Below are positions 12,512 through 32,000 of a stretch of DNA of 32,000 bases, in pieces. The notes below the pieces were generated by a model. It was given only the letters and a program-made list of their open reading frames with translations. It was not told the DNA's origin and searched no databases. Position 1 is the first letter of the stretch. Every line of letters starts with the position of its first letter. Origin of the DNA: Candidatus Omnitrophota bacterium (lineage in GTDB: Bacteria > Omnitrophota > Gorgyraeia > 2-01-FULL-45-10); NCBI GenBank assembly GCA_023818895.1, contig JAMWCX010000003.1:60001-92000 (forward strand). Direction: 5' to 3'. Position numbers and translations under genes: made by a program.

Positions 12512-12925
12512 TTAATATTGGTTTTCGTAACTTTCTTTAGTTCTGGCAGGGCCCGTACGCATATGCCAGTAAGAATCTCTTCTTTTATCTATCCTCTGAT
12601 CAAGAACATCCTTTCCGAAAAACTTAATCAGAAGACCTATTGGAGTTATCACAAAATAAAAAAGGATCGCAAGAATCAGATGGCTTACGAAAAACCCTAT
12701 TACCAGCCCCAACGCCATCCATGCCTTCTGGAGCGGTTTCAAAACTTCGGGAAAGACTATGCCCAAGGCCAAAAACGATGAGCCGCTACACAAAAGATAG
12801 GGCCAGGACGTCTTGCCGCGCCACATCGCCAAACCGCCAAGCATAAGAAGAACACCTCCGATGGTCAGGCCGAACTCGCGCAACTGCTTTCTGCCGCTTT
12901 TAATATTCTTTATATCTTCGAGCAT
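12512..12925 (-). CDS. SxtJ-like membrane protein
   Basis: 137 aa with 3-4 TM helices. It sits between a carbamoyltransferase and the DUF5989-like gene, which is the known SxtI/J/K arrangement. Confidence 0.6.
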   Translation of the reverse strand: MLEDIKNIKSGRKQLREFGLTIGGVLLMLGGLAMWRGKTSWPYLLCSGSSFLALGIVFPEVLKPLQKAWMALGLVIGFFVSHLILAILFYFVITPIGLLIKFFGKDVLDQRIDKRRDSYWHMRTGPARTKESYENQY

Positions 12926-12926
12926 T

Positions 12927-14744
12927 TTAGTCCAGTTCGAATTCCTTAAGCCAATCTATATCTTTATCTAGCTTTTTCTGCGTTTTCTTCTCAAGAAGAC
13001 AGTTTCCCATTATCAAATAGTCCATATTGGTCCTCATGAAACACATGTAGGCATGCTCAGGGCTCTCAACTATAGGCTCACCCCTTACATTGAAGGAGGT
13101 GTTTATTATAACAGGACAACCGTATTTTTCGTCAAATTTTTTTATCATGTCATAATAAAGAGGGTTCCATCTCCGGCCAACTGTCTGAACGCGCGCCGAA
13201 TAGTCCACATGCGTAACGGCCGGTATTTCCGAACGTACCACATTCAGTTTATCGATACCGAAGAGGTTATTATCCCGCTCTGAAACTGCTTTACGCTTTT
13301 CCTTTTTAACAGGCGCCACCAATAGCATGTAATCACTCTTCGTCTCAAGGTCGAAATAATCCTTGGCCTTCTCCTCAAGGACCGATGGCGCGAAGGGCCT
13401 GAAACTTTCTCTGAATTTTATCTTTAGGTTCATCGTCTCCTGCATTTTCGGAGAACGCGCGTCGCCGATTATGCTGCGGGCGCCTAAGGCCCGGGGCCCG
13501 AATTCCATCCTCCCCTCAAACCAGCCTATGACCTTCTGCTGGGCTATAAGGTCTGCTATGGTCTCGGGTATTTCTTCATCCTTAAGTTTTGTGTAAGACG
13601 CTCCGCGGCTTTTAAGAAATTCTTCTATATAATCGTTTCCGTATGAAGTACCTAAAAGAGAGGCTTTCTGAAAATCATTAACATCATCGGCCATCCTGGG
13701 ATTTTCCAAATATTGATACCACGTAAAAAGCGCGGCCCCAAGGGCAGCGCCCGCATCGCCAGCGGCGGGCTGAATCCACACATCCTTAAAAGGCGTCTCC
13801 CGCAGTATACGGCCATTCCCGACGCAGTTCAGCGCTACTCCGCCCGCCAGAGTAAGATACTTCTTCCCTGTCACTTCATGGGCGTATCTGGCCATGGCAA
13901 GCATCACTTCTTCGGTGACATTCTGTATAGAAGCGGCGAGATCCATGTCACGCTGCGTTATTCGCGATTCTGGTTTTCTCGGCGGCCCACCAAACAGCTT
14001 ATGGAATTTAGCGTTCGTCATGGTGAGCCCGGCGCAGTAATTGAAGTACTTCATGTTCAACTTGAAGGAGCCGTCCTTCTTAAGGTCGATGAGCTCGCGC
14101 ATTATCAGATCCTTATATAGTGGCCTGCCGTAAGGCGCCAGCCCCATGACTTTATACTCGCCTGAATTTACTTTAAAACCCGTATAATATGTAAATGCCG
14201 AATATAGAAGACCGAGAGAATGCGGAAATTTTATATCGGCCTTAATAGACATAGAATTGCCTTCGCCGATGCCGAGACTAGCCGTCGTCCACTCGCCCAC
14301 GCCATCCATAGTCAAGATAGCCGCTTCCTTGTAAGGCGAAGGGAAGAACGCGCTTGAGGCGTGTGACTCGTGGTGTTCGGGAAATATTATCTTACCGCTG
14401 TATCCGAGCTCCTTTTTAATGAGATCCTTCATCCAGAGCTTCTTTTTTATCCACAGCGGGATGGCCTTTATGAAACTCCTTATCCCGAAAGGGGCGTAAG
14501 CAATGTATGTTTCAAGTATGCGCTCAAACTTGATGAACGGCTTATCGTAGAAAGCGACGTAGTCGATATCCTTTACCTTTATACCGGCTTGCGAAAGACA
14601 GAATCTTATGGAGTTGGCGGGGAACGTGTAGTCGTGCTTTTTCCTGGTAAAGCGCTCTTCCTGCGCAGCGGCTACTATATCGCCGTCTTTAATCAGCGCG
14701 GCCGCTGAATCGTGATAGAAACACGAGATTCCCAATATGTACAT
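12927..14744 (-). CDS. carbamoyltransferase (NodU/CmcH/SxtI family)
   Basis: 605 aa. The N-terminus MYILGISCFYHDSAAALIKDG (ASKHA/Kae1-like) plus a C-terminal YrdC-like carbamoyltransferase domain (VINTSFNVRGEPIV) fit this family. Confidence 0.85.
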   Translation of the reverse strand: MYILGISCFYHDSAAALIKDGDIVAAAQEERFTRKKHDYTFPANSIRFCLSQAGIKVKDIDYVAFYDKPFIKFERILETYIAYAPFGIRSFIKAIPLWIKKKLWMKDLIKKELGYSGKIIFPEHHESHASSAFFPSPYKEAAILTMDGVGEWTTASLGIGEGNSMSIKADIKFPHSLGLLYSAFTYYTGFKVNSGEYKVMGLAPYGRPLYKDLIMRELIDLKKDGSFKLNMKYFNYCAGLTMTNAKFHKLFGGPPRKPESRITQRDMDLAASIQNVTEEVMLAMARYAHEVTGKKYLTLAGGVALNCVGNGRILRETPFKDVWIQPAAGDAGAALGAALFTWYQYLENPRMADDVNDFQKASLLGTSYGNDYIEEFLKSRGASYTKLKDEEIPETIADLIAQQKVIGWFEGRMEFGPRALGARSIIGDARSPKMQETMNLKIKFRESFRPFAPSVLEEKAKDYFDLETKSDYMLLVAPVKKEKRKAVSERDNNLFGIDKLNVVRSEIPAVTHVDYSARVQTVGRRWNPLYYDMIKKFDEKYGCPVIINTSFNVRGEPIVESPEHAYMCFMRTNMDYLIMGNCLLEKKTQKKLDKDIDWLKEFELD

Positions 14745-21984: not shown

Positions 21985-22018
21985 CGTATATTATGTACGC
22001 TAACTAGACCAATATGAT

Positions 22019-22094
22019 GGAGCTGGCGAATGGATTCGAACCATCGACCTGCGGTTTACGAAACCGCTGCTCTACCGACTGAGCTACGCCAGCT
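22019..22094 (-). tRNA. tRNA-Thr (anticodon CGU), CCA encoded
   Basis: Reverse complement: GCTGGCG-TA-GCTC-AGTCGGTA-GAGC-A-GCGGT-TTCGTAA-ACCGC-AGGTC-GATGG-TTCGAAT-CCATT-CGCCAGC-T-CCA. This is a canonical cloverleaf. Confidence 0.95.
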
Positions 22095-22170: not shown

Positions 22171-22698
22171 CTATATCTTCCTGCTGTCATAGGCCCAGTG
22201 AAGAATGGCCTGGCGCTGGCGGGCGCGGCATTCAAGATTTCCTCTGTCGCAATTATGCCTCACCTGCGCTATATGCCTCTTAATCGCCTTCCACCTTTTT
22301 ATCTGCCTTCTATCCTCTTCGGGCAAGCGTCTGCCCATATAATAACGGCAGTACCACTGAAACCACCCTCTGGGGTCATCCTTGTAAAGCCAGCGCTTTT
22401 TCCTCCAGACTAATAGGGGTTGGCTTGCGTTGACTTTGAAATAATTCAACTTCGGATCATGCCGCTCGCTACAGAGTTTTGCTTTTTTGAACCATGAGGC
22501 TGGGAATTCTTTTCTGCAGTCGGTCATGTATTTTCCGCCGAACACTCCCATCTCCAACATCTGTTTCGGAGTAAGCTCAGGTTTGAATTCAGGGTCAAAA
22601 TTTCGCCCCACCGGTTCGCTAAGGACATATTTATAATTTTTTTGCATCTTGTCATTGACGATAACTATCTTTTTTTTCATGCCAAAATAGTCCTTCAC
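22171..22698 (-). CDS. conserved hypothetical protein, Trp/Arg/Cys-rich (175 aa)
   Basis: The ORF has a distinctive DDPRGWFQWYCRYYMGRR motif. I believe this is a widespread uncharacterised family but cannot name it with certainty. The GTG start overlaps the upstream stop by 1 nt. An alternative ATG lies at 22680. Confidence 0.55.
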   Translation of the reverse strand: MKDYFGMKKKIVIVNDKMQKNYKYVLSEPVGRNFDPEFKPELTPKQMLEMGVFGGKYMTDCRKEFPASWFKKAKLCSERHDPKLNYFKVNASQPLLVWRKKRWLYKDDPRGWFQWYCRYYMGRRLPEEDRRQIKRWKAIKRHIAQVRHNCDRGNLECRARQRQAILHWAYDSRKI

Positions 22699-23201
22699 TA
22701 TACCTTATGCCTGCCGAAAAATATCTCCCTCACTTTGTCCTTGCCTATAGCGCGTATAAGCTCTGATGAAGAACAGTAGAAAAGAAGAAGTATAAAGAGC
22801 CATATCTGTCTGACCCAGAATATGGGCCAAATTATGCGGCTGGATATGTTCTGCCATGTCCACAATAAACCTTTTTCCCTCAGGGAGATATGAACAAATT
22901 CTTCCAGCGCCAGAAAAAGCATAGCGACCAAAAAGTATACCGCCGTCTTTGTCAGGACATTATAGATAAGCGGCTTTTCTGGATACTGGTTGAGGAACGG
23001 GATCCTGCCAGCGATAAAAACTACCTTGGCGACGACCAGGGCGCCTATCACCGCCACGGCCGACATAGGTACGGCGATGCCGAACTGCTGAAGCATTAGT
23101 GTCCTTGTGACTAGTAATATATGGAACATTATGAAGAAGAATAGAAACGCTGGGAATATCTCTCGGAGTGTTTTTGCAAGATATACGGCCGCTCTTATCA
23201 T
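22698..23201 (-). CDS. hypothetical integral membrane protein (about 4 TM helices)
   Basis: 167 aa with four long hydrophobic segments. Co-directional with the polysaccharide locus and tightly spaced. Confidence 0.55.
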   Translation of the reverse strand: MIRAAVYLAKTLREIFPAFLFFFIMFHILLVTRTLMLQQFGIAVPMSAVAVIGALVVAKVVFIAGRIPFLNQYPEKPLIYNVLTKTAVYFLVAMLFLALEEFVHISLREKGLLWTWQNISSRIIWPIFWVRQIWLFILLLFYCSSSELIRAIGKDKVREIFFGRHKV

Positions 23202-23231
23202 ATTTTCTTTTTGCTCCTTTTTATAAGAACG

Positions 23232-24164
23232 CTATCGAAAATAGGGGTCTTCGAGAGCCCCCTTAAGCGCCTTGCCTGCTGGACTTTCTGGGTCAAAAGC
23301 CCAATCAGTCTCTTTATCGACATTGAAAAGGACAAACGCCTTAACCTTTTGCATTGCCTTTATATCTAAGAGGGCCTGCCTTATCCACTCCGCTTTATCG
23401 CCGCCTTTAGAAGAACATCCGAATTCGGTTATGATAACAGGCTTTTCGTAAGAGGTGGTTATCTCGCTATATCGCGCCGAGAAGATCTCTTGAAAGCTCA
23501 TCCACCTACTCCAGTTCTGGCTGTTTCCCCAATTGTATCCATCTATGCCGCAATAATCCACATAGGCATCGCCTGGATACGAGCGCGCGAAACCGTTTTC
23601 TTTCGGCCTATCCTCCCAGTTAATGGAAAATACCCATTTCACATTGTCCACGCCGGCATTGTCAAATAACTTTCTTATATGCCTGTAGATGGCAATATAT
23701 TTCTCTGATCCTATCCTCGCCGCTGACCAGGGATACCAATCGCCGTTCATCTCGTGAGCGAATCTCAAATATAAATCCCTGCGTATATTTTTAAGCCTTA
23801 AAGCAAAGTCCAAGATATAATTGTCGTACTTGCCAGCTATCAGCCCATCGTAATCTATCGCCTCTTGAGCGGCAGCCCGCCAGGGCTCCCAAGTGACCAT
23901 AAGGCGCGCTCCGGCAGAGTAGACATCCCGCACGGTCTTATCGGGAACGTAAGATCCCCATTCGGCAAAAACCATTATAAGCGACGGCTTTTTTCCGAAG
24001 TCCTCTCTGAAGGCGTTCAGTTCATGCCATGATGGATTATCGCCCAAAAAAAATCCAGCCAGGCATGTTTGCTCTCCTTGCTGCCTTGAGGCATTACAAG
24101 ACGAGACAGAGATCACCGTTGAAAGAACCAATATAACAACCGCTGCCTTGTAAAACAATCTCAC
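23232..24164 (-). CDS. GH26-like (clan GH-A) glycoside hydrolase, probable lipoprotein/secreted
   Basis: RFAHEMNGDWYPWS carries the acid/base Glu and PVIITEFGC the nucleophile Glu. Together with WEPW and GIDGYNW these fit GH26 (COG4124-type). I moved the start to the GTG at 24164: AGGA lies 6 nt upstream, and the product begins (M)RLFYKAAVVILVLSTVISVSSC, a signal peptide with a lipobox-like Cys. This start also lies just after the stop of the upstream gene (24176). Confidence 0.7.
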   Translation of the reverse strand: MRLFYKAAVVILVLSTVISVSSCNASRQQGEQTCLAGFFLGDNPSWHELNAFREDFGKKPSLIMVFAEWGSYVPDKTVRDVYSAGARLMVTWEPWRAAAQEAIDYDGLIAGKYDNYILDFALRLKNIRRDLYLRFAHEMNGDWYPWSAARIGSEKYIAIYRHIRKLFDNAGVDNVKWVFSINWEDRPKENGFARSYPGDAYVDYCGIDGYNWGNSQNWSRWMSFQEIFSARYSEITTSYEKPVIITEFGCSSKGGDKAEWIRQALLDIKAMQKVKAFVLFNVDKETDWAFDPESPAGKALKGALEDPYFR

Positions 24165-24175
24165 GAGATATCCTA

Positions 24176-24406
24176 TTAAGTCATACGCCCCAGGAGCAGC
24201 TTTGCCACAGTGTTGACAATTTCGGCATGAGCCGCCTCTTCTAGGGAAAGTTTGCTGAAAAGTGCTTTCATCTGCTGATCGTCGAGCCTGTCTGCAAGGT
24301 CCTTGTAACGAGCGCACATCTTCATCTCAACTGTCCTCATCTGATCGAGGTAATTTTTATAATCTTCTTTAGTAAGCACTTCTTCCTTCTTTCGTAACTT
24401 TATCAA
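24176..24406 (-). CDS. small helical protein, rubrerythrin/ferritin-like half domain (paralog B)
   Basis: About 76 aa. Contains VEMKMCARY (E-x6-Y) and LEEAAHAEIV (ExxH), the ligand pattern of one helix pair of a diiron four-helix bundle. The start is uncertain: TTG 24406, GTG 24379 or ATG 24340. Confidence 0.5.
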   Translation of the reverse strand: MIKLRKKEEVLTKEDYKNYLDQMRTVEMKMCARYKDLADRLDDQQMKALFSKLSLEEAAHAEIVNTVAKLLLGRMT

Positions 24407-24608
24407 TCACTTCCAGAACAATGTTTTGATGCTTTGTCGAGCAAGCAGCAAGATACTTAAAATGCTCCTTTACCTTTTCCGCCTTATCCTGCTCCATGCC
24501 GACCCAGAACAACGCGGCTTTCAAATGATTCATATATACTGGAACGGACTTCTCCTCCATATCCATTGCCTCCTTCAGGAGGCGCAGCAACTCTTCTTTT
24601 TTAATCAT
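24369..24608 (-). CDS. small helical protein, rubrerythrin/ferritin-like half domain (paralog A)
   Basis: 79 aa. Contains MEEKSVPVY (E-x6-Y) and CSTKHQNIV (SxxH in place of ExxH). It aligns by eye with the downstream paralog. GGAAAG precedes the ATG at 24608. Confidence 0.55.
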   Translation of the reverse strand: MIKKEELLRLLKEAMDMEEKSVPVYMNHLKAALFWVGMEQDKAEKVKEHFKYLAACSTKHQNIVLEVIDKVTKEGRSAY

Positions 24609-24654
24609 CTTTCCATTCGTCCCTTATATCTTTCAACTTGCGTTTTTTATTATA

Positions 24655-26175
24655 CTACCTCTCCTCATTAAAGTAAAAGATGGCGGCAAGGGCTAGAAAA
24701 TAATATAATGCCCATAAGCTATTGACGAGGATTGCTGGTTCGCGCTCATAGATATACCTATTTGCCCCCCATACTACAGTAACAACGCAGAAGAACATCA
24801 TCGTCATCTGCGGCCAAAGACGCCAATAAGGTAATCTCTTTTCTTTTACCTTCCCCGTCACACCGAAGCTTACCTTTACGCCAAGAAGCGCCGATGCGGC
24901 GGCTCTAATGTAAATCGAAAATGTATTTACGCCGAGCAGCTGACCGATAAATAGGTCCTGTGGGCTGTAATGCCTGTTTCCGAGCATGATGTAGAAGACG
25001 CTCACAGATAATATAAGATATGGAAGAAATGTGAAAAAATATATTTCGGGATGAGTAAAGAATGACGGTATCCTGAAAAGCAGATAGGTAATAGGACAGA
25101 TCATAAGAAAGAAGAATGCTATACCTATCAGATAATAAGTGCTTGAAAGAAAATACTCCCACCACTGGAGAGGTTTGAGGGAAAAAGGCCTTGTCAAAAA
25201 ACGCCATAACAGCTTTCGAAAGACGCTTATGGTGCCGACAGCCCACCTAAACTGCTGTTTGAAATAACTATTCAGGTCCTCAGGTCCCATTCCGAAAGCC
25301 GAGACATGGTCATAGTAGCGCGATCTCCAACCAGCTGAGTGCAGCTTCACAGATGTTGCAAAGTCCTCTGTGACGGTTGATTCATCGAGACCTCCTACGG
25401 AGACAAGCGCTTCGCGCCTGAATATAACATTGGTCCCACAGCAGAACATCGCCCCACCTGAGGATTTACCTTCGCAGATATATTCATAAAACACCGCTTG
25501 CTGAAATGCCGCACCCCGCGCTATAGCGCTTTTATCTATGTTTGAATAAAACTGAGGGGTCTGAATAAAGGCGAGTTTATCATCGCGCTCCATCATTGGG
25601 ACAAGGACTTTTAAAAAATTTGGCATCGGGTTCTGGTCGGCGTCAAATATGACGACGTATTTTTCGGTAAGGTTCTTTAGGCAGTCGTTTATAATCCCGG
25701 CCTTGGCACCGTGACGGATCTTGCGCCTGAATAGGACCAGACCATATTCAGACGCGATTTCATCAGCCTCTTTTTTGTAGGAGTCCTCCGAGCTGTCATC
25801 CAGGAAATATACCTTCTTATTCGGATAGTCCATTGCGTTTATGGTTGTGAAGGTCTTCTCAAGCACCTCTTTTGGCTCGTGTCTTGCGGTGACCAGTACA
25901 GCTACGGACGGCCCGCCGGCCCTCGCCGAGAATGGAAACATCTCCTCTCTTATTTTCGGGCTCGTCATTATCCTGAAGATGTTGGCCGCATAGCCGAAAG
26001 CATGGAGCAGGATAAAAAGCTCTCCGACTATAAGCATAACGGCAAACACGCGCTCTACGGGACTATATTCGCCGGTCATGAACAGTACGCTCCTTGTGAT
26101 GACGTAGACGACTACGGCAATGAGCGCGCCGACGACCAGGAAATTCATGAAAAGTTTGCGGAATTCCATATTCAT
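24655..26175 (-). CDS. processive family-2 glycosyltransferase (cellulose/PNAG-synthase-like polysaccharide synthase)
   Basis: 506 aa. N-terminal TM helices, then a GT-A domain with FLDDSS, FDADQNP (DxD), TVTEDFATS (TED) and QQFRWAVG (QxxRW), followed by C-terminal TM helices. No PilZ-like RxxxR/DxSxxG tail is visible. Confidence 0.88.
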   Translation of the reverse strand: MNMEFRKLFMNFLVVGALIAVVVYVITRSVLFMTGEYSPVERVFAVMLIVGELFILLHAFGYAANIFRIMTSPKIREEMFPFSARAGGPSVAVLVTARHEPKEVLEKTFTTINAMDYPNKKVYFLDDSSEDSYKKEADEIASEYGLVLFRRKIRHGAKAGIINDCLKNLTEKYVVIFDADQNPMPNFLKVLVPMMERDDKLAFIQTPQFYSNIDKSAIARGAAFQQAVFYEYICEGKSSGGAMFCCGTNVIFRREALVSVGGLDESTVTEDFATSVKLHSAGWRSRYYDHVSAFGMGPEDLNSYFKQQFRWAVGTISVFRKLLWRFLTRPFSLKPLQWWEYFLSSTYYLIGIAFFFLMICPITYLLFRIPSFFTHPEIYFFTFLPYLILSVSVFYIMLGNRHYSPQDLFIGQLLGVNTFSIYIRAAASALLGVKVSFGVTGKVKEKRLPYWRLWPQMTMMFFCVVTVVWGANRYIYEREPAILVNSLWALYYFLALAAIFYFNEER

Positions 26176-26177
26176 AT

Positions 26178-28715
26178 TTAGAAATAATATTTGAACGACG
26201 CGATGAGATCGCTATCTTTGTAGACCTTATTGCTTGAACGCGAAAAAGAGCTGCGTACATTGAAGTTCAGCCTCTTGTTGATGTCCCAGTTGAATTCTCC
26301 CGAAAACTTGTGGGCGACTACGGTCTCGGAATCCACCGAGAATTGATATCCTATATCATAATAGAGGTCGTCTGCGCCGAAGAAGATCTCTTCTTTGTTC
26401 AGGTAGTGGCGCCAGTTAAAAAACACCGAATTGGTGGTAAATCCCTTCGGCGACCAGTAAGCGGCCACCTTTTCGTTAAACTCTTTGTAAAAATACCTGT
26501 ACTTTACCGAAAAGCGCAACGGGTCCAGCGAAAAGAAATAGAGGATATCGAAACCCGGCTCATTTAGATAGTTATGGTCAGAATAGGTGGCGTATAGCAT
26601 ATCTGCACCGACTTTTAACCTCTTTGACAGGCTAAGATCCAGCCTCTCCCTAAAGCAGTCGCGGTATTCGTGGCTTACGATGACGCTGCTGGAGTTCTCA
26701 AGCCTTTCCCTCTCGTAAGAAAATCTGAAAGCGCCTGTCCCCAGAACTCTGAAAGTGGCGCTAGAACCGAAAGTGTTCATTGCCTTTATATCTTTATTAT
26801 AGATAACGCAGTTATAGAAACCGTCCACCCAGCCTATCGGATTATGCATATAGGTGAGCTTCACCATCTCCTCGTTCTCGATCACCTGGCTATAGTCCGA
26901 AAAGGATCTGAAGGTAAGCTTCTGGCCGGCGTCAATCCGGAGGGTGTAATCTAGAGGATAACTGAACTTATTGAAATAGGAGTGCTTCCTCACATCCATG
27001 TCCCTTGAGATAGAATCTGCTTCAACGAAATCATACCCTGTGTCCCAGCGAAGATGAGCCGCCATAAGAGAGATCTTCTCAAGACCTTCATTTGCCCTGA
27101 AATGGGTCGGCGACTGCTCAAGTATCTTCTTGTATTCGTCTGTCGCCTCTTTCCACATCGACTGATAAGAATATATCTGGCTTAAGTCGAACATGGCCTC
27201 CACGTTTCCGGAAGCCCGCCTTATGGCCTCTTTGTAATACTTTATCGCCTGTTCTACGCGATCGCCCCAATAGGCGGTCTTCGCCTTCATCTCAACTTCT
27301 ATGTCCCTATCATATTTCATTTCGAGTATTTTTTGGTATTCCTTTAGAGACCTGTCATATTCCCTCATCCAGCCGAGAACCCTGGCCTTCTGCAGCCTTA
27401 TTTTGCTATCTTCCGTTTCGGCGAGAAGATCATCATAGGCCTTTATCGAACGTCTATAGTCCCTGGCCCACGATAGGACGTCCGCAAGTTTTCTTTTCAC
27501 CTCTCGATCATAAGATTTTTTCAACACTTCCTCATAAAAAGCGATACTTTGTTGAAATCTCTTGGTGTAGGAATAGAGGTCGGCAAGATAGACTTTGGCT
27601 TTGAGATCGTCTGGATCCTTTGCCAGAATCTCCTTTAGGGTTTTTTCGGCTTTCACATAATCACCAGAATATAACAACGCCTTGGCATAATAAGCCCTAA
27701 TCATCCCGTCATCTCTTATGGAAAGGGCCTTTTCAAGATAACCTATGGCCTGGGCGTATTTCTTCTGCCATGTAAGGATCTGACCCAAAAGGCCATAGGC
27801 CTCCACATATTGAGAGTCTTGGCTTATTATTTCCCTTAAGAGCCTTTCAGATCCTTCGAGATCCTTGCTCCACACCAGGACATTTGCGAGTTTCCATTTT
27901 ATATCGATACTGCCCGGCTCTATTTCAAGGGCCTTCCTATATCCGGCTATTGATTCATCATATTGCTTCTGCCAGCTCAGTATGTCAGCCAACGAAAGTA
28001 ACACTTTTACATTATTAGGGTCTTTCTTCAGGATGCGCCTATATTCGGCGATGGAATCCCCATAGTCTTTGCTTATCATATACGCCTCGCCAAGGAGTCT
28101 TCTTATCTCCGTCTTCATCTTTATGTCTTTATTTACTTTCTCATCTTCCAGAAGAGTCCTGTATATCATTACGGCATCGGCGGCCCTGCCGGAATATTGC
28201 AGAGCTTGGGCCATGAGAAAACGCGTCTTGATATCCGTAGGGTTTTCCTTAAGGACCATTATGAGCAGCCGCTCCGCTCTCTCCCACTGGCCCGTCCACA
28301 TAAACACTTCAGCCAGGCGCCTATCCGTAGCGGTATCGCGGCCCTTTCGTAAGATTTCTTCATAGAGCCTTATCGCCTCGGTGTACTTTTTCTCCCAAGA
28401 ATATGTCTCGGCAAGCGAACCTTTCACCGTTAGGTCATCGGGTCTAAGCGCAAGAAGTTTTTCAAAAGCCTCTATCGCCTCTGAATGCCTGCCTGTCCAC
28501 TGGCAGGAATAGCCAAGCTCGCGCAAGGCGTCCAACCGACGAGGATCGATGGCAATAGCCTTTTTGAAATATGGAATCGCTTTTGTGTAGTGGGCCTTTT
28601 CGAAATAACGGTGACCTTTGTAGTAATTGATTTCGGCCTGGTGGGTGCTGTGATATACAAACGTTGTGCCAAAAGAAGTAATGATAAGAATCAAAATAAC
28701 TATGAGGATCTTCAT
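26178..28715 (-). CDS. TPR-repeat periplasmic scaffold fused to C-terminal outer-membrane beta-barrel (PgaA/BcsC-like exporter)
   Basis: 845 aa. N-terminal signal/anchor sequence, then about 550 aa of repeated TPR units (recurring W..(K/Q)Y..AI..Y...L...P). The last ~290 aa show an alternating beta-strand pattern and end in ...SFKYYF, the terminal aromatic residue typical of outer-membrane proteins. Confidence 0.8.
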   Translation of the reverse strand: MKILIVILILIITSFGTTFVYHSTHQAEINYYKGHRYFEKAHYTKAIPYFKKAIAIDPRRLDALRELGYSCQWTGRHSEAIEAFEKLLALRPDDLTVKGSLAETYSWEKKYTEAIRLYEEILRKGRDTATDRRLAEVFMWTGQWERAERLLIMVLKENPTDIKTRFLMAQALQYSGRAADAVMIYRTLLEDEKVNKDIKMKTEIRRLLGEAYMISKDYGDSIAEYRRILKKDPNNVKVLLSLADILSWQKQYDESIAGYRKALEIEPGSIDIKWKLANVLVWSKDLEGSERLLREIISQDSQYVEAYGLLGQILTWQKKYAQAIGYLEKALSIRDDGMIRAYYAKALLYSGDYVKAEKTLKEILAKDPDDLKAKVYLADLYSYTKRFQQSIAFYEEVLKKSYDREVKRKLADVLSWARDYRRSIKAYDDLLAETEDSKIRLQKARVLGWMREYDRSLKEYQKILEMKYDRDIEVEMKAKTAYWGDRVEQAIKYYKEAIRRASGNVEAMFDLSQIYSYQSMWKEATDEYKKILEQSPTHFRANEGLEKISLMAAHLRWDTGYDFVEADSISRDMDVRKHSYFNKFSYPLDYTLRIDAGQKLTFRSFSDYSQVIENEEMVKLTYMHNPIGWVDGFYNCVIYNKDIKAMNTFGSSATFRVLGTGAFRFSYERERLENSSSVIVSHEYRDCFRERLDLSLSKRLKVGADMLYATYSDHNYLNEPGFDILYFFSLDPLRFSVKYRYFYKEFNEKVAAYWSPKGFTTNSVFFNWRHYLNKEEIFFGADDLYYDIGYQFSVDSETVVAHKFSGEFNWDINKRLNFNVRSSFSRSSNKVYKDSDLIASFKYYF

Positions 28716-28735
28716 GATAGCGGCGTATTCGCTTC

Positions 28736-29314
28736 TTATTCCAACCCGCCTTCAATGGCCTTACGCAGGTCCTCCCAAAATTTACTTCGCTCTGGCGCAT
28801 CCGGCTGCGATAGGGCCGGAAATTCAAGGAAAGGCACCTTCACGTTTTCTTTCGCTAGTTCTTCGCCGATTATCTCGGCCATGATTCCGGCAAGGACAGG
28901 ATCGTTCGGATCCGGGTTCTCGGCTGGATTGGGAGATTCGGTCTGATATTTATTGACCTTGTGCTTTCCCCAATGAATACCGCAGGTTGGACTGTTTGCA
29001 AGACCTATAAAACAGGTAAGACGATAGTTATTCTTCAAGAACTCGCGAACCATTAGCATAGGCACCTTCAAAAGCTCCCTGCAGTGATCACGGAAGAATA
29101 TATTGTCATACTGCTGGCGGCCCTGGGGATTTCGCTTAAGCCCCATGGCCGTCGTTTCGGGACAAGGGTATTGGATAATCCCGACGTGTTTTTGCATAAG
29201 ATAGGTTACAAGTTCTTGAGAAAGCGGGAAATTCTGTCCCAGGATATGCACCCTGCAGTAGGGATTGATCAGGCACTGCGCTATAAGTATTATTCTCTTA
29301 TCTTTCTTGCCCAT
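28736..29314 (-). CDS. DUF523/TudS-like putative [4Fe-4S] protein with acidic Pro-rich C-terminal extension
   Basis: 192 aa. Three Cys lie in the contexts QC14L, PC51PE and SPTC111G. The spacings of 37 and 60 residues resemble the three cluster ligands of TudS (DUF523) as I recall them. Confidence 0.5.
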   Translation of the reverse strand: MGKKDKRIILIAQCLINPYCRVHILGQNFPLSQELVTYLMQKHVGIIQYPCPETTAMGLKRNPQGRQQYDNIFFRDHCRELLKVPMLMVREFLKNNYRLTCFIGLANSPTCGIHWGKHKVNKYQTESPNPAENPDPNDPVLAGIMAEIIGEELAKENVKVPFLEFPALSQPDAPERSKFWEDLRKAIEGGLE

Positions 29315-29337
29315 CTCAAATGTCCTCTAAACTTATT

Positions 29338-30300
29338 TCATTTTACCTCGCCGAAAGGGTTTGTCGCCGGCTCCACCCTTACGCCTTTAAGCTCGCCCTT
29401 TTCCCACTGAAAAGTGAATATTATGGGATGGCCGGCCTTGCTTTTTACGGTCAGGGTTTCGAGGTATTCTCCATCCATCGGCACAGAGGGAGGTGGTGTG
29501 GTTATATTGATACTGACAAGCTGCCCCTCCTTATAGAAATACTGAAATTCGATCGGCCTGCCTTCGACGGTATCTATCTTCAGAAACTTGACGCCCTCTC
29601 TTAAAGGGCTTGCCGGCGCGATATCCATATTTTGCAACTCGGGGTCTGGCCGGCGAGCTGTATAATCTGCCACAAGATAGAGATCCTCTCCTTCCTGCGT
29701 CTTTATATCGAAGGCGACAACCGAATCGTTCGGCTCGAGCACCCTATCAGCCCCGATCTGCTGGACAGCGTCGCCTTTAGACAGCGCAAGCCGCGCCTGA
29801 CGCCTGGCTTCGTCTTTCATCAGACCGGGCTGGCACTGACCGCTCAGCGAGTAGAACCTGCCGCTGGACACTCCTATGATATCTGAGTAAAGCTTCAGCG
29901 CCTCTCCTTCTTTCCTTATCTCACCGGTTATCACAAGGTCCGCGCCCCATCTGTCCCGGTAGCCAGCTACGGCACCGAGCTCATCGTGGACAAGTAACGG
30001 CTTAAGGTGCCTCAGATCTTTCAGCCGGATTTCGGCCTCAGGAGTCAACGGCTTCGCGTCGCCTTCAGAGGCGGTCTTGATCCAGTTTTCAGCAAACTTA
30101 TCACCTGTTACATGAGTATATTTCCTCGATGAGTTAATCTCTTCGATCACCGCCGCGGTCATGTCCTTTTCAACCCCCTTAAGCTCGCCTGTCTTGTCTT
30201 CGAAAGGCACGACGAGCACTCGCGTGCCGGCGCCGTGGCATACGCACGTGCAACAAAATAAAAATAGCATGAAAACAAAAGCCCTGATGCGCATCTTCAT
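29338..30300 (-). CDS. secreted hypothetical protein (first gene of the polysaccharide locus)
   Basis: The ATG at 30300 (MKMRIRAFVFMLFLFCCTCVCHGAG...) gives a signal peptide, and an AGGAGAAGAAAGG ribosome-binding region lies upstream. The track's TTG start at 30339 is less likely. I recognise no family. Confidence 0.6.
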   Translation of the reverse strand: MKMRIRAFVFMLFLFCCTCVCHGAGTRVLVVPFEDKTGELKGVEKDMTAAVIEEINSSRKYTHVTGDKFAENWIKTASEGDAKPLTPEAEIRLKDLRHLKPLLVHDELGAVAGYRDRWGADLVITGEIRKEGEALKLYSDIIGVSSGRFYSLSGQCQPGLMKDEARRQARLALSKGDAVQQIGADRVLEPNDSVVAFDIKTQEGEDLYLVADYTARRPDPELQNMDIAPASPLREGVKFLKIDTVEGRPIEFQYFYKEGQLVSINITTPPPSVPMDGEYLETLTVKSKAGHPIIFTFQWEKGELKGVRVEPATNPFGEVK

Positions 30301-30340
30301 TGTAACCTTTCTTCTCCTACAATAAAGGTTAGTCGTCAAA

Positions 30341-30359
30341 GCTAAATAGAGCTAAATAG
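30341..30359. repeat. tandem 10-nt repeat carrying GCTAAATAG twice (operator-like)
   Basis: GCTAAATAG-A-GCTAAATAG at 30341-30359. A near-copy in inverted orientation (CTATTTAgGC) lies at 30446-30455. Confidence 0.8.
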
Positions 30360-30370
30360 TATTTGATATC

Positions 30371-30399
30371 ATTATATCCCTTTAGGCCGAGAACTCCAA
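30371..30399 (-). promoter_or_regulatory. candidate sigma70 promoter of the polysaccharide locus
   Basis: On the minus strand: TTGGAG (30399-30394), a 17-nt spacer, then TATAAT (30376-30371). The tandem repeat falls at roughly +7 to +30 of the predicted transcript. Confidence 0.5.
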
Positions 30400-30418
30400 C
30401 AGAAATCATTAAGAAAAC

Positions 30419-30447
30419 TTGACATAAAACCTCTTTTACATTACCCT
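30419..30447 (+). promoter_or_regulatory. candidate promoter of cstA
   Basis: TTGACA (30419-30424), a 17-nt spacer, then TACCCT (30442-30447). The -10 is weak and keeps only TA...T. Confidence 0.4.
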
Positions 30448-30470
30448 ATTTAGGCTAAGGGAACAAATTC

Positions 30471-32000
30471 ATGTACGCACTGACGTTGCTTATAGTCTCG
30501 CTTCTTGTCTTCGCGCTCGCCTATCGTTTTTACGCCAAGTTTATAATAACGAAGGTGCTGGTCGTTGATGACCAAAGGATGACACCCGCGTATAGATTTA
30601 ACGATGGCCGGGAATATCATCCGACCAACAGGTACATCCTCTTTGGCCACCATTTCGCTTCTATATCCGGCGCGGGCCCTCTTGTCGGACCGATTCTCGC
30701 CGCACAATTCGGCTATCTTCCGGGTTTCCTTTGGATATTAATAGGCGCGGTACTTGCCGGGGCGGTCCATGATATGGTCATACTCTTCGCGTCAGTAAGA
30801 ACAAAAGGTCTTTCGCTCACAAGGCTTGCGAAAAAAAACGTAAGCAGGGTCGCCGGCATTATAACGGGGCTCGCCATCCTGTTCATCATAATAACGGCCC
30901 TGGCGGGACTTGCTCTGGTAGTCGTCAACGCTCTCAATGAAAGCTCTTGGGCTACCTTCACGATCATCATCACTATACCGGCGGCTATGTTCGTGGCTCT
31001 ATACATGTATCGGATCCGCCCCGGCAAAATCTTCGAGGCTTCCGTTATCGGCATGGCCATAGTAATAGCTGGCGTGGTGCTGGGAGAACCGCTTTCAAGG
31101 TCCGCTTTAGGCGGATATTTTCTTTTTTCAAAGCAGGCTCTATCGGCGTCGCTTCCGCTATACGGCTTTATCGCCTCGATACTTCCTGTCTGGCTCCTTA
31201 TGTGCCCTCGAGATTACCTCAGTTCATACATGAAGATAGGTACAGTAGCGCTCTTGGCTGTCGGAATAGTAGTTGTCAATCCGCATCTTAAGATGCCCGC
31301 TTTCACCAATTATATTCACGGTGGGGGGCCTATAATACCCGGCAAGGTATGGCCTTTTGTCTGTATCACAATCGCATGCGGCGCCATAAGCGGTTTCCAT
31401 GCCCTCATAAGTTCAGGGACAACGCCTAAAATGATAAAACTAGAGTCCGACATTCGCATGATAGGATTCGGGGCGATGCTTGTTGAGTCGATTGTCTCGG
31501 TCATGGCCCTGATAGCCGCTACAGTATTGATACCAGCTGACTATTTCGCGATCAACGTGCCCGTGGATGTATTCCAGAAGCTTGGTCTCCACACAGTACA
31601 ACTTGCGGACATAGAGCGCATGACCGGCGAGGCCCTGGCGGGCAGGACCGGTGGAGCGGTATCGCTCGCAGCGGGAATGTCAGTAATCCTTTCCGCCATC
31701 CCTGGCATGAGGAACCTGATGGGATACTGGTACCATTTCACGATAATGTTTGAGGCGATGTTTATATTGACCACGATAGACACCGGCACGCGCGTGGCCC
31801 GCTATATATTCGACGATCTGGTAAAATTCGCGAATCCGAGATGGACCGGCAAAAAACTTTGGGCGGCTATAGGCAGCGGAGCGGCTGTAAGCTTCCTGTG
31901 GGGATACCTTGTGTGGAACGGTGATATTACGACTATCTGGCCAATGTTCGGGGTAGCAAACCAGCTTCTGGCAACGCTTGCTTTATTGGTGGGGACCGTC
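30471..32000 (+). CDS. cstA: carbon starvation protein A (peptide/pyruvate transporter family), 5' 510 codons; runs off the window end
   Basis: My own translation from the ATG at 30471: MYALTLLIVSLLVFALAYRFYAKFIITKVLVVDDQRMTPAYRFNDGREYHPTNRYILFGHHFASISGAGPLVGPILAAQFGYLPGFLWILIGAVLAGAVHDM... This matches the CstA N-terminal signature (FGHHFA.I.GAGPLVGP.LAAQ.GYLPG). The frame stays open to the window end, so it is absent from the ORF track. Confidence 0.92.
   Translation, partial: MYALTLLIVSLLVFALAYRFYAKFIITKVLVVDDQRMTPAYRFNDGREYHPTNRYILFGHHFASISGAGPLVGPILAAQFGYLPGFLWILIGAVLAGAVHDMVILFASVRTKGLSLTRLAKKNVSRVAGIITGLAILFIIITALAGLALVVVNALNESSWATFTIIITIPAAMFVALYMYRIRPGKIFEASVIGMAIVIAGVVLGEPLSRSALGGYFLFSKQALSASLPLYGFIASILPVWLLMCPRDYLSSYMKIGTVALLAVGIVVVNPHLKMPAFTNYIHGGGPIIPGKVWPFVCITIACGAISGFHALISSGTTPKMIKLESDIRMIGFGAMLVESIVSVMALIAATVLIPADYFAINVPVDVFQKLGLHTVQLADIERMTGEALAGRTGGAVSLAAGMSVILSAIPGMRNLMGYWYHFTIMFEAMFILTTIDTGTRVARYIFDDLVKFANPRWTGKKLWAAIGSGAAVSFLWGYLVWNGDITTIWPMFGVANQLLATLALLVGTV

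What the first reader, a model, noticed from the sequence alone, without database searches (positions are those of the whole stretch)
22171..30399. Uncharacterised synthase-dependent exopolysaccharide locus with an atypical accessory gene set
Seen in sequence: nine co-directional minus-strand genes run from 30300 to 22171. Intergenic gaps are at most 46 nt, and one promoter candidate lies upstream. Three genes form the core triad. The first is a GT2 synthase with the full processive beta-glycosyltransferase motif set (D, DxD, TED, QxxRW) flanked by TM helices. The second is an 845-aa TPR protein fused to a C-terminal beta-barrel that ends in Phe. The third is a secreted GH26-like hydrolase with both catalytic Glu motifs. 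Established knowledge: synthase + TPR/porin + cognate glycosidase is the defining architecture of synthase-dependent secretion systems (Bcs cellulose, Pga PNAG, Pel, alginate). Departures from those systems: I see no PilZ tail on the synthase. There is no BcsB-, PgaB-, PgaD-, PelD- or Alg44-like partner and no deacetylase. The remaining genes are not known from those systems: two half-size rubrerythrin-like proteins, a TudS/DUF523-like Fe-S protein, a secreted protein of unknown family, a 4-TM protein and a Trp/Arg-rich protein. Inference: the locus may make and export a beta-linked polymer. GH26 enzymes are mostly beta-mannanases or beta-1,3/1,4-glycanases, so a mannan-like or mixed-linkage glycan is possible. 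Sequence alone cannot decide this. The locus also lacks any recognisable c-di-GMP receptor, which suggests a different control logic.
Basis: partly seen in the sequence, partly recalled or inferred. Interest (0 to 1): 0.72.

Follow-up and report, generated by a model that had tools for sequence, protein, structure and literature searches.

The report
Undescribed synthase-dependent beta-glucan export locus
This stretch of an uncultivated Omnitrophota genome carries a conserved, so far undescribed gene cassette that most likely makes a beta-glucan slime polymer and pushes it out through both membranes, with an unusual pair of tiny metal-binding proteins where the usual c-di-GMP switch would sit.

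Summary
Nine co-directional minus-strand genes lie at 22171-30300, with gaps of 46 nt or less. The predicted core triad is real:
- a BcsA-like GT2 synthase with all processive motifs and a modelled transmembrane channel;
- a TPR protein whose C-terminus models as a 16-strand barrel closest to PgaA, PelB and BcsC;
- a lipoprotein GH26.

1. The GH26 is 42% identical to the C. thermocellum lichenase CtLic26A and only remotely related to mannanases. This favours a mixed-linkage or other beta-glucan, not mannan.
2. Comparison with 80 related loci shows a conserved unit of five genes, not nine: porin, synthase, GH26 and the two half-ferritin hairpin proteins. The half-ferritin pair is present in 32 of 34 Omnitrophota-type loci. 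g1, g2 and g8 are found only in this locus, and g9 recurs in just two others.
3. The family is tied to c-di-GMP. Relatives fuse the g6-like hairpin to a canonical PilZ domain or to a GGDEF domain. Others carry a degenerate PilZ tail on the synthase or a neighbouring PilZ protein. This particular locus has none of these.

No BcsB-like partner occurs anywhere in the family, and I found no publication describing it. I rate it a new variant of a known kind, of moderate to high interest.

The parts
30371..30399 (-). Promoter candidate: TTGGAG, 17-nt spacer, TATAAT, in the 170-nt divergent intergenic region shared with the CstA-like gene
   Evidence: Read directly from the sequence. The -10 is perfect but the -35 matches only 3 of 6, and the consensus scan did not list the site. 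No Rfam riboswitch is present here.
29338..30300 (-). g1: secreted 320-aa protein of unknown family, co-transcribed but probably not part of the EPS machinery
   Evidence: It has a signal peptide. There are no Pfam, NCBIfam, PHROG or PDB matches. Only 5 homologues were found, and it is absent from the 80 related loci. In L081 its homologue lies between CstA/dCache and a pilus/T2SS cluster.
28736..29314 (-). g2: TudS-related (CD3072-family-like) Fe-S protein, a lineage-specific passenger gene
   Evidence: NCBIfam NF045597 scores 114 bits (cutoff 130) and Pfam PF04463 scores 22 bits (cutoff 34.7). It is absent from the 80 related loci.
27096..28715 (-). g3, N-terminal part: signal or anchor helix followed by about 540 aa of TPR repeats (periplasmic scaffold)
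   Evidence: Many TPR Pfam families match, for example TPR_19 at 4e-54. An N-terminal hydrophobic helix spans residues 3-21.
26178..27095 (-). g3, C-terminal part (residues 541-845): 16-strand outer-membrane beta-barrel porin ending in Phe
   Evidence: The AF2 model has pLDDT 86 and pTM 0.79, with 16 strands. The Foldseek top four are PgaA 4y25, PelBC 9h80 and BcsC 9b8a/6tzk, at TMq 0.74-0.76. There are no Pfam or PDB sequence matches. A barrel HMM finds the same domain upstream of the GT2 in 70 of 81 loci.
24655..26175 (-). g4: BcsA-like processive GT2 synthase with its own transmembrane channel; no PilZ domain
   Evidence: TIGR03030 CelA scores 215 bits, covering model positions 59-565 of 714. 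The PDB sequence match to BcsA is about 1e-35. All motifs, including the gating-loop FGVTGK, are present. The AF2 model has pTM 0.84, and BcsA is the top Foldseek hit at TMq 0.77-0.80.
24369..24608 (-). g5: 79-aa two-helix half-ferritin-like protein; the family has invariant E18, H28 and H60
   Evidence: Pfam Rubrerythrin scores 18 bits, below cutoff. The family alignment is A3. hhalign relates it to the g6 family at 88% probability. A g5-like gene precedes a g6-like gene in 32 of 34 Omnitrophota-type and 12 of 47 Desulfobacterota-type loci.
24176..24379 (-). g6: 67-aa two-helix half-ferritin protein with a canonical E...ExxH half of a dimetal site; its start overlaps the g5 stop by 11 nt
   Evidence: E27, E57 and H60 are invariant (76-aa ORF numbering). 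The profile matches Due Ferri diiron hairpins, TM1526, symerythrin, bacterioferritin and EncB/EncC. The exact 67-aa protein is in public databases. Relatives carry PilZ and GGDEF fusions.
23232..24164 (-). g7: periplasmic lipoprotein, GH26 of the CtLic26A (beta-1,3-1,4-glucanase) branch
   Evidence: PDB 2bv9 matches at E 1.3e-55, against 2.9e-12 for the best mannanase. Identity is 42% over 257 columns. Of 56 family-conserved positions, 49 are identical in CtLic26A, including E109 and E222. The signal peptide and VSSC lipobox are visible in the sequence.
22698..23201 (-). g8: 167-aa protein with 4 transmembrane helices, unknown family, lineage-specific
   Evidence: Four hydrophobic helices are predicted. 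It matches no family and is absent from the 80 related loci.
22171..22680 (-). g9: 169-aa cytoplasmic Trp/Arg-rich protein of unknown family, occasionally linked to the cassette
   Evidence: No Pfam, NCBIfam, PHROG or PDB match was found. Copies at 71-80% identity lie downstream of the cassette in L001 and L027 only.

Best explanation
The locus carries a five-gene, cross-phylum cassette for a synthase-dependent exopolysaccharide system that has not been described.

The proposed mechanism has four steps.
1. g4, a BcsA-like GT2, polymerises a sugar nucleotide (probably UDP-glucose) at the cytoplasmic face. It threads the growing chain through its own transmembrane channel, without a BcsB-type partner.
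2. The long TPR arm of g3 receives the chain in the periplasm, and the C-terminal 16-strand barrel of g3 passes it across the outer membrane.
3. g7, a lipoprotein GH26 of the lichenase branch, trims or clears the polymer in the periplasm, as BcsZ, PgaB and PelA do in their systems.
4. g5 and g6 are cytoplasmic two-helix half-ferritins. They most likely pair into a four-helix bundle with a dimetal site and act as a regulatory or sensory subunit of the synthase. They occupy the regulatory niche that PilZ and c-di-GMP fill in Bcs.

The hydrolase branch points to a beta-glucan containing beta-1,3 next to beta-1,4 linkages (mixed-linkage glucan) as the most likely product. I give that about 50%.

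g1, g2, g8 and g9 are co-transcribed neighbours rather than core parts.

Shown here: the identities and folds of g3, g4 and g7, the conserved synteny, the g5/g6 metal-ligand pattern, and the domain fusions. Inferred: the sugar and linkage, g5/g6 pairing and any sensing role, and the periplasmic role of g7.
For: Synthase. CelA-type HMM match and BcsA PDB match. Full motif set with gating loop. The model's best structural matches are BcsA, then plant CesA, HAS and CslF6.

Porin. Confident 16-strand model whose four best PDB matches are the PgaA, PelB and BcsC exporters.

Hydrolase. CtLic26A matches at 1e-55 and 42% identity, with 49 of 56 conserved positions shared, including both catalytic Glu. 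All 58 family members examined begin with a hydrophobic N-terminal segment read as a signal peptide or membrane anchor. 2BV9 is cited as a beta-1,3/1,4-glucanase in PMC10470212.

Conservation. Of 80 GTDB loci, 72 have the GH26 and 68 the TPR protein next to the GT2. Most exceptions are contig ends. The barrel HMM hits 70 of 81 loci.

g5/g6. The adjacent pair is found in 32 of 34 and 12 of 47 loci. The family has invariant E...ExxH and diiron-hairpin PDB matches. The g6-like hairpin is fused to a canonical PilZ in L005, L015, L017 and L025 and to a GGDEF cyclase in P0211. In the Paceibacteria-labelled locus L049 the pair stays with the GT2 although porin and GH26 are absent.

No BcsB-like conserved neighbour was found.
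Against: - No biochemical data exist for any member. Linkage cannot be read from a GT2 sequence, and the R. ilealis authors say the same of their own models (PMC10374906).
- At 42% identity to a single characterised lichenase, substrate specificity may not be conserved.
- The GT2 is only 27-33% identical to any annotated BcsA. It falls far below the curated cutoffs for CelA (215 vs 699 bits), as g3 does for BcsC (56 vs 858 bits).
- g5/g6 pairing and metal binding are inferred from motifs only. Window g5 lacks the acidic residue that most g5-like proteins have four positions before H60.
- The pair is missing from about three quarters of Desulfobacterota-type loci, so it is not essential to the machinery.
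- g1, g2, g8 and g9 sit in the same tight operon, so a local functional role for them cannot be excluded.
Confidence: 0.65

Rival explanations
1. It is a divergent cellulose (beta-1,4-glucan) secretion system. g4 makes cellulose as BcsA does, and the GH26 simply replaces the GH8 BcsZ as the trimming endoglucanase.
For: The best sequence and structural matches of g4 are cellulose synthases. NCBI and JGI label family members 'endoglucanase' and 'cellulose synthase (UDP-forming)'. Other systems have swapped the hydrolase family; for example, the clostridial CcsZ is GH5 (PMC8892547).
Against: The nearest characterised GH26 is a lichenase. From my own knowledge of Taylor et al. 2005 (PMID 15987675; paper not held), it shows no activity on beta-1,4 homopolymers of glucose. 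MLG and curdlan synthases are also BcsA-like in sequence (PMC6821405), so similarity to BcsA does not fix the linkage. BcsB, the PilZ tail and GH8 are all absent.
Confidence: 0.2
2. The product is a beta-mannan or glucomannan, as the first reader suggested from the GH26 family assignment.
For: Most characterised GH26 enzymes are beta-mannanases. g7 does match several of them weakly (E 3e-12 to 1e-6).
Against: The match to the lichenase branch is more than 40 orders of magnitude stronger, and 49 of 56 conserved positions are shared with CtLic26A. The only mannosyltransferase matches of g4 (5mlz, 6yv7) are far weaker than its BcsA matches.
Confidence: 0.05
3. All nine genes form one machine. g1 (secreted) and g8 (4 transmembrane helices) would be functional replacements for BcsB and PgaD, and g2 and g9 would be further dedicated subunits.
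For: The operon is tight, with gaps of 46 nt or less and one upstream promoter candidate. No BcsB-like partner exists, which leaves an apparent vacancy. g9 recurs beside the cassette in L001 and L027.
Against: g1, g2 and g8 have no counterpart in any of 80 related loci, although the other five genes do. The g1 homologue in L081 is syntenic with CstA and a pilus/T2SS cluster, with no EPS genes nearby. Upstream genes in sister loci are unrelated to one another. Plant CesA and hyaluronan synthases work without a BcsB-type partner (PMC10374906).
Confidence: 0.1
4. g5 and g6 are oxidative-stress or iron-handling proteins (mini-rubrerythrin or ferritin) that merely sit next to the EPS genes, with no role in polysaccharide control.
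For: Their only detectable similarity is to ferritin-like diiron proteins. The hosts are anaerobes, in which rubrerythrins are common. The pair is absent from most Desulfobacterota-type cassettes.
Against: The g5-then-g6 pair sits in the same order directly after the GT2 or the GH26 in 44 loci across two phyla. It is duplicated where the GT2 carries the extra tail. Fusions to PilZ and to GGDEF argue for signalling rather than detoxification. The pair stays with the GT2 in L049, where the export genes are missing.
Confidence: 0.15

Closest known systems
Bcs cellulose secretion systems (BcsA-BcsB-BcsZ-BcsC, types I-III)
   Same: Both have a membrane GT2 with D, DxD, TED, QxxRW and FxVTxK motifs and a BcsA-like fold. 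Both have a TPR arm fused to a 16-strand barrel like BcsC, a periplasmic endoglucanase-type hydrolase, and the same overall logic of polymerisation coupled to export.
   Different: There is no BcsB, and the synthase has no PilZ tail. The hydrolase is GH26, not GH8. The porin has no sequence similarity to BcsC outside the TPRs (BcsC model 56 vs cutoff 858 bits). The synthase is 27-33% identical to BcsA and far below the CelA cutoff. None of BcsD, E, F, G, Q or R is present. A half-ferritin pair is added.
Pga (PNAG) and Pel systems: PgaA and PelB exporters
   Same: The g3 barrel model is structurally closest to the PgaA barrel (4y25, TM 0.74/0.77) and to PelBC (9h80). All share the TPR-plus-porin single-polypeptide design.
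   Different: The locus has no PgaB-type deacetylase/hydrolase, no PgaD, and no PelC, PelD, PelE, PelF or PelG. g4 matches PgaC much less well than CelA (92 vs 215 bits).
Rhizobial mixed-linkage beta-glucan system BgsBA (+TolC)
   Same: It also uses a BcsA-like GT2 without a canonical PilZ, and it makes a lichenase-sensitive beta-1,3/1,4-glucan (PMC5567048, PMC13438883). That is the product class suggested here by the GH26.
   Different: BgsA binds c-di-GMP through its own C-terminal domain. Export uses the membrane-fusion protein BgsB and TolC, not a TPR-porin, and the operon holds no hydrolase. None of those partners was detected in this locus (Pfam and NCBIfam scans of the nine proteins).
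Romboutsia ilealis RiGT2 (bacterial 1,3;1,4-beta-glucan synthase)
   Same: It is a stand-alone BcsA-like GT2 shown to make MLG without a BcsB partner, and its activity was independent of c-di-GMP (PMC10374906).
   Different: The host is Gram-positive, so it has no porin. [quoted passage not shown] Relatedness to g4 was not tested here.
CtLic26A (GH26 module of C. thermocellum endoglucanase H, PDB 2bv9)
   Same: g7 is 42% identical to it. The catalytic Glu109 and Glu222 and 49 of 56 family-conserved positions are shared.
   Different: CtLic26A is a cellulosomal, secreted biomass-degrading module. g7 is a stand-alone lipoprotein encoded inside a biosynthetic cassette.
Two-helix ferritin-like proteins: encapsulated ferritins (EncFtn/EncB/EncC), symerythrin, and the designed Due Ferri hairpins
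   Same: g6 is a helix-loop-helix carrying E...ExxH, a design that yields a dimetal site only on dimerisation.
   Different: There is no encapsulin context. g5 and g6 form a heterologous pair in which g5 has a different ligand set (E, H, H). They are linked to a polysaccharide synthase and fused to PilZ or GGDEF in relatives.

Membership tests
Synthase-dependent exopolysaccharide secretion systems (general class) | Inner-membrane processive glycosyltransferase that also forms the translocation channel | tested here: met
   Motifs plus gating loop are present. The HMM alignment spans the transmembrane regions. The AF2 model has BcsA as its best structural match, TMq 0.77-0.80.
Synthase-dependent exopolysaccharide secretion systems (general class) | Periplasmic TPR scaffold joined to an outer-membrane beta-barrel porin | tested here: met
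   TPR Pfam hits. The 16-strand barrel model has PgaA, PelBC and BcsC as its top PDB matches.
Synthase-dependent exopolysaccharide secretion systems (general class) | Periplasmic glycoside hydrolase or lyase encoded in the operon | tested here: met
   g7 is a GH26 with a lipoprotein signal, and its position is conserved after the GT2 in 72 of 80 loci. Enzyme activity was not tested.
Synthase-dependent exopolysaccharide secretion systems (general class) | Inner-membrane co-polymerase and/or c-di-GMP receptor (BcsB + PilZ, PgaD, Alg44, PelD) | tested here: not met
   No such domain occurs in any of the nine proteins, and there is no riboswitch. Relatives do have PilZ in other forms.
Bcs cellulose synthase complex | BcsA reaching the curated family score, with a C-terminal PilZ domain | tested here: not met
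   TIGR03030 scores 215 bits against a cutoff of 699, and PRK11498 scores 158 against 992. The match ends at model position 565 of 714, before the PilZ.
Bcs cellulose synthase complex | BcsB co-catalytic subunit adjacent to BcsA | tested here: not met
   No BcsB domain is found in the locus. No conserved neighbour of that type occurs in 80 related loci.
Bcs cellulose synthase complex | GH8 endoglucanase BcsZ and a BcsC porin reaching family score | tested here: not met
   The hydrolase is GH26. The BcsC model NF008520 scores 56 bits against a cutoff of 858, through the TPRs only.
Bcs cellulose synthase complex | Product is beta-1,4-glucan | not testable with these tools
   Requires linkage analysis of the polymer.
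Rhizobial BgsBA mixed-linkage glucan system | HlyD-type membrane-fusion partner BgsB, and c-di-GMP binding by the BgsA C-terminus | tested here: not met
   None of the nine proteins has a membrane-fusion-protein domain. g4 ends directly after its last transmembrane helix. Direct sequence comparison with BgsA was not possible.
GH26, lichenase branch (CtLic26A) | GH26 fold signature with the catalytic acid/base and nucleophile Glu | tested here: met
   Pfam PF02156 scores 53 bits against a cutoff of 20. E138 and E247 (310-aa numbering) align with Glu109 and Glu222, and both are at least 95% conserved in 58 homologues.
GH26, lichenase branch (CtLic26A) | Closer to the lichenase than to mannanases or xylanases | tested here: met
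   E is 1.3e-55 for the lichenase, against 2.9e-12 for the best mannanase and 0.015 for the beta-1,3-xylanase.
GH26, lichenase branch (CtLic26A) | Hydrolysis of beta-1,3-1,4-glucan and not of mannan or cellulose | not testable with these tools
   Requires an enzyme assay.
Ferritin-like / rubrerythrin diiron four-helix-bundle superfamily (g5, g6) | E...ExxH metal-ligand motif on a helix pair | tested here: met
   g6 family: E27, E57 and H60 are invariant, and the profile matches diiron hairpins and ferritins. g5 family: E18, H28 and H60 are invariant, with no canonical ExxH, so the feature is met for g6 only.
Ferritin-like / rubrerythrin diiron four-helix-bundle superfamily (g5, g6) | Complete four-helix bundle with two metal half-sites in one chain | tested here: not met
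   Each protein is a single helix pair of 67 or 79 aa. A bundle would require dimerisation, which was not tested.

The most novel reading that the evidence does not exclude
Anaerobic, largely uncultivated lineages (Omnitrophota, Desulfobacterota and others) share a distinct class of synthase-dependent system that secretes a mixed-linkage beta-glucan. Its synthase needs no BcsB-type partner. It is switched not by an in-chain PilZ but by a split dimetal half-ferritin heterodimer (g5/g6) that senses oxygen, redox state or metal. That sensor module is wired to c-di-GMP in some lineages through PilZ or GGDEF fusions and works alone in this one.
Probability: 0.25. Interest if true: 0.78.

Novelty: new variant of a known kind. 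Interest (0 to 1): 0.6.

Why it matters
Only a handful of synthase-dependent polysaccharide systems are defined: cellulose, PNAG, Pel, alginate and rhizobial MLG. All come from cultured Proteobacteria or Firmicutes.

This cassette would add a family that is widespread in anaerobic sediment and groundwater phyla. The scan found 212 confirmed relatives in GTDB species-representative genomes.

The family has three unusual features:
- a synthase that appears to work without a co-polymerase;
- a lichenase-type hydrolase, pointing to bacterial mixed-linkage glucan outside the rhizobia and clostridia;
- a conserved pair of two-helix metal-binding proteins that recur fused to PilZ and GGDEF domains.

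The last feature suggests a new sensory input domain for c-di-GMP signalling and for control of matrix production in oxygen-sensitive bacteria. For Omnitrophota, which are nano-sized and possibly host-dependent cells, a secreted glucan could bear on attachment.

One cultured organism, Dethiosulfatarculus sandiegensis SPR, carries the cassette. The predictions are therefore testable.

Tried and rejected
- A c-di-GMP riboswitch or other RNA element upstream of the operon: none found, either at Rfam gathering thresholds over the whole window or in a permissive scan of 30200-30560.
- A sigma-70 consensus promoter upstream: the scan lists nothing there. Only a weak -35 with a perfect -10 is seen by eye.
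- BcsB- or PgaD-like roles for g1 and g8: rejected as core functions. Neither gene is conserved. g1 is syntenic with CstA and pilus genes elsewhere. The genes upstream of the porin in sister loci are unrelated to one another: a methyltransferase, ComEC, CstA, ArnT-like and PpiD-like proteins (identities judged by eye, not HMM-tested).
- Sequence searches of the barrel domain, g1 and g9 against the PDB: no hits. PHROG searches for g1, g2, g8 and g9: no hits.
A tblastn search against plasmids showed only that BcsA is the nearest annotated relative, at 27-33% identity.
- The primary CtLic26A paper could not be retrieved. Its specificity statement rests on my own knowledge and on a citing paper.
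- Literature searches for Omnitrophota plus cellulose synthase, synthase-dependent plus GH26, family 26 plus cellulose synthase plus TPR, and PilZ plus ferritin-like found no description of this system.

Full report
**Observation.** The ORF list shows nine co-directional minus-strand genes between 22171 and 30339. I corrected four gene starts from the sequence and from homologue alignments:
- g1 starts at ATG 30300.
- g6 starts at GTG 24379 (67 aa).
- g7 starts at GTG 24164 (310 aa), giving the signal peptide MRLFYKAAVVILVLSTVISVSS|C with a lipobox.
- g9 starts at ATG 22680.

These four starts are the lengths on record for the source MAG, a Candidatus Omnitrophica bacterium with locus tags NC938_06005-06045 on a 321-kb contig. 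Gaps are 46 nt or less, and two junctions overlap or nearly abut. The locus is bounded upstream by a divergent CstA-like gene and downstream by tRNA-Thr(CGT) at 22018-22093. The rest of the window is housekeeping: purine and polyamine synthesis, enolase, Rnf and an MFS transporter. Its -35 is weak, and the consensus scan did not list it.

**The synthase (g4).** g4 matches the CelA cellulose-synthase domain model over positions 59-565 of 714. That span covers everything except the first transmembrane helices and the PilZ tail, at 215 bits and well below the equivalog cutoff. It matches solved BcsA chains at about 1e-35. It carries LDD, KAG, DAD, QTPQ, FCCGT, TED, QQFRW and the gating-loop motif FGVTGK, with two N-terminal and several C-terminal transmembrane helices. 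An AlphaFold2 model built on 36 homologues has pLDDT 82.6 and pTM 0.84. Its closest PDB structures are BcsA from E. coli and R. sphaeroides (TMq 0.77-0.80), followed by plant CesA, hyaluronan synthases and barley CslF6.

**The porin (g3).** The first 540 residues or so of g3 are TPR repeats. The last 305 residues match no Pfam family and no PDB sequence. They nevertheless model confidently (pLDDT 86, pTM 0.79) as 16 antiparallel strands. The four best Foldseek matches are the PgaA barrel, PelBC and two BcsC structures (TMq 0.74-0.76), ahead of general porins (TMq 0.52 or lower). The protein ends in ...KYYF. The second refutation test also fails to refute.

**The hydrolase (g7).** Pfam calls g7 GH26. 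The decisive result is the PDB search. The GH26 module of C. thermocellum endoglucanase H (2bv9 and variants) matches at 1.3e-55 and 42% identity. The best mannanase reaches only 2.9e-12, and the beta-1,3-xylanases about 0.015. 2BV9 is CtLic26A, cited as a beta-1,3/1,4-glucanase in PMC10470212. From my own knowledge of Taylor et al. 2005, it is inactive on mannans and on beta-1,4 homoglucan; I could not retrieve that paper. Across 58 homologues taken from related loci, 56 positions are at least 90% conserved. Of these, 49 are identical in CtLic26A, including the catalytic Glu109 and Glu222. All homologues start with a hydrophobic N-terminal segment that I read as a signal peptide or membrane anchor. 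In characterised synthase-dependent systems the operon-encoded hydrolase matches the polymer. On that basis a beta-glucan with beta-1,3 adjacent to beta-1,4 linkages is the best guess. Cellulose is second and mannan is unlikely.

**Conservation.** A scan of GTDB species representatives gave 212 confirmed relatives of g4, of which 80 were kept. Omnitrophota relatives are 54-68% identical. A second group is 43-49% identical and is mostly Desulfobacterota/Thermodesulfobacteriota, including the cultured Dethiosulfatarculus sandiegensis SPR. tblastn and ORF clustering show the order TPR-porin, GT2, GH26 in nearly all loci. The GH26 is present in 72 of 80 and the TPR protein in 68 of 80, and most of the exceptions lie at contig ends. 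An HMM built from the Omnitrophota barrels finds the same domain at the C-terminus of the gene upstream of the GT2 in 70 of 81 loci, including the distant group. The third refutation test fails to refute as well. By contrast, g1, g2 and g8 have no counterpart in any of the 80 loci, and g9 occurs in two (L001, L027). g1 has only five detectable homologues. In one of those genomes the homologue lies between CstA/dCache and a response regulator plus a type IV pilus/T2SS cluster, with no EPS genes nearby. The genes upstream of the porin in sister loci are unrelated to one another, and none appears BcsB-like by inspection; they were not scanned with HMMs.

**The two small proteins.** The g5-like and g6-like families are related two-helix proteins (hhalign probability 88%). 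The g6 family has invariant E27, E57 and H60, the E...ExxH half of a ferritin-type dimetal site. Its profile matches the designed Due Ferri diiron hairpins, TM1526, symerythrin, bacterioferritin and the encapsulated ferritins EncB and EncC. The g5 family has a different invariant set: E18, H28 and H60. HMM searches of stop-to-stop ORFs find a g5-like gene immediately followed by a g6-like gene on the GT2 strand. This holds in 32 of 34 Omnitrophota-type loci; the other two end just after the GH26. It also holds in 12 of 47 Desulfobacterota-type loci, always directly after the GT2 or the GH26. A MAG labelled Paceibacteria (L049) keeps the GT2 and the pair but has neither porin nor GH26. That ties the pair to the synthase rather than to export.

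**Link to c-di-GMP.** The window synthase ends right after its last transmembrane helix. About a third of Omnitrophota orthologues are roughly 608 aa. Their extra 100-residue tail gives a sub-threshold PilZ match without the canonical motifs. Loci with that longer synthase also contain a second g5/g6 pair, a response regulator and a large protein in the signalling cluster C3. In L005, L015, L017 and L025 the g6-like hairpin is fused to a PilZ domain with both RxxxR and NxSxxG motifs (Pfam 34 bits, above cutoff). In 21 Desulfobacterota-type loci a 270-aa protein with an N-terminal PilZ (RxxxR, DxSxxG; 21.7 bits, just below cutoff) lies beside the cassette. STAS, anti-sigma-kinase, PAS-PP2C and Hpt genes often accompany it. 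An exhaustive HMMER search with g6 found 85 representative clusters. Nearly all are stand-alone proteins of 63-72 aa, but one 525-aa protein has the hairpin at its N-terminus followed by a C-terminal GGDEF cyclase domain (148 bits; the intervening hydrophobic stretches look like membrane segments). The hairpin therefore behaves like a signalling input module. The window locus carries the bare module with no recognisable nucleotide receptor and no riboswitch.

**Mechanism proposed.** g4 polymerises and translocates the glycan. The g3 TPR arm and barrel take it across the periplasm and the outer membrane. g7 trims or clears it. g5 and g6 form a dimetal four-helix bundle that modulates g4, plausibly in response to oxygen, redox state or metal availability in these anaerobes. 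The first three steps rest on fold and homology. The last step is inference from motifs, synteny and fusions.

**Comparison with known systems.** The locus works like Bcs, Pga or Pel, but it fails the membership tests for each. It has no BcsB, PilZ tail or GH8, and its curated-model scores are far below cutoff. It lacks PgaB/PgaD and the Pel-specific proteins. The rhizobial MLG system BgsBA+TolC uses a membrane-fusion protein and TolC and has no hydrolase. The R. ilealis MLG synthase is Gram-positive and depends on its PilZ domain. The Bcs review lists types I-III and some alternative assemblies, none with this composition. Five literature searches found no description of it. Public annotation reads only 'glycosyltransferase', 'tetratricopeptide repeat protein', 'endoglucanase' and 'hypothetical protein'.

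**Verdict.** I rate it a new variant of a known kind. Interest is 0.6, driven by the cross-phylum distribution, the absence of a co-polymerase, and the half-ferritin module with its PilZ and GGDEF fusions. The main weakness is that the product and the regulatory role are inferred and have not been shown.

Noticed in passing
window 22018-22093 (-): A tRNA-Thr(CGT) gene lies 78 nt downstream of the g9 stop on the same strand, marking the end of the operon. A second tRNA lies at 8350-8423 (+).
   Followed up: partly
window 24649-24677 (-): The best sigma-70-like match in the region (TTTACT-17-TATAAT, 10 of 12) lies across the end of g4, with its -10 hexamer reaching into the 46-nt g4-g5 gap. It could be an internal promoter for g5-g9.
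   Followed up: no
window 22171-22680 (-); L001 about 14693; L027 about 12925: g9 is a 169-aa Trp/Arg-rich cytoplasmic protein with no Pfam, NCBIfam, PHROG or PDB match. It is 71-80% identical in two other Omnitrophota, which is more conserved than the synthase (64-65% in those loci). In both it lies downstream of the same cassette.
   Followed up: partly
L081 5835-20960 (GCA_964352425.1): The g1 homologue (57% identical) sits in the order CstA(-) | dCache protein | g1 | response regulator | MshEN-T2SSE ATPase, T2SSF, pseudopilins, PilM, PilO. g1 may therefore belong with a pilus/T2SS or CstA neighbourhood rather than with the EPS genes. L006 also has CstA directly upstream of its cassette.
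   Followed up: partly
P0211 (525 aa): A g6-like half-ferritin hairpin (residues 2-62) is joined through hydrophobic, apparently membrane-spanning stretches to a GGDEF diguanylate cyclase domain. This suggests the hairpin is a previously unrecognised sensor domain.
   Followed up: partly
L034-L080, e.g. L062 (Dethiosulfatarculus sandiegensis SPR): Desulfobacterota-type cassettes have two extra small TPR proteins (about 160 and 210-235 aa) ahead of a porin protein of roughly 900-1100 aa. They are flanked by a 270-aa PilZ protein on the opposite strand and by partner-switching genes (STAS, HATPase_c_2 kinase, PAS-SpoIIE phosphatase, Hpt).
   Followed up: partly
L002, L003, L006, L007, L009, L020, L021, L022, L026, L031: Omnitrophota loci in which the GT2 is about 590-617 aa (L022 is cut at the contig start), with a degenerate PilZ-like tail, have the g5/g6 pair directly after the GT2. 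A response regulator and a large protein in the signalling cluster C3 often follow. In L006, L020, L021 and L022 a second g5/g6 pair lies after the GH26.
   Followed up: partly
L049 9983-11917 (MAG labelled Candidatus Paceibacteria): This locus has the GT2 (48% identical) plus a g5/g6 pair, but no TPR-porin and no GH26. That would fit a cell without an outer membrane, although the MAG assignment was not checked.
   Followed up: no
window 12512-14744 (-): An SxtJ-like small protein (Pfam PF19588, 49 bits) sits next to a 605-aa carbamoyltransferase, between the Rnf genes and purN. The pairing is reminiscent of saxitoxin-cluster genes but lies in a housekeeping context.
   Followed up: no
window 5677-9979: A polyamine gene cluster is present: a saccharopine-dehydrogenase-like protein plus an Orn/DAP/Arg-decarboxylase-family protein (likely the carboxyspermidine pathway) on the + strand, and a pyruvoyl-dependent arginine decarboxylase and an agmatinase-family protein on the - strand.
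   Followed up: no
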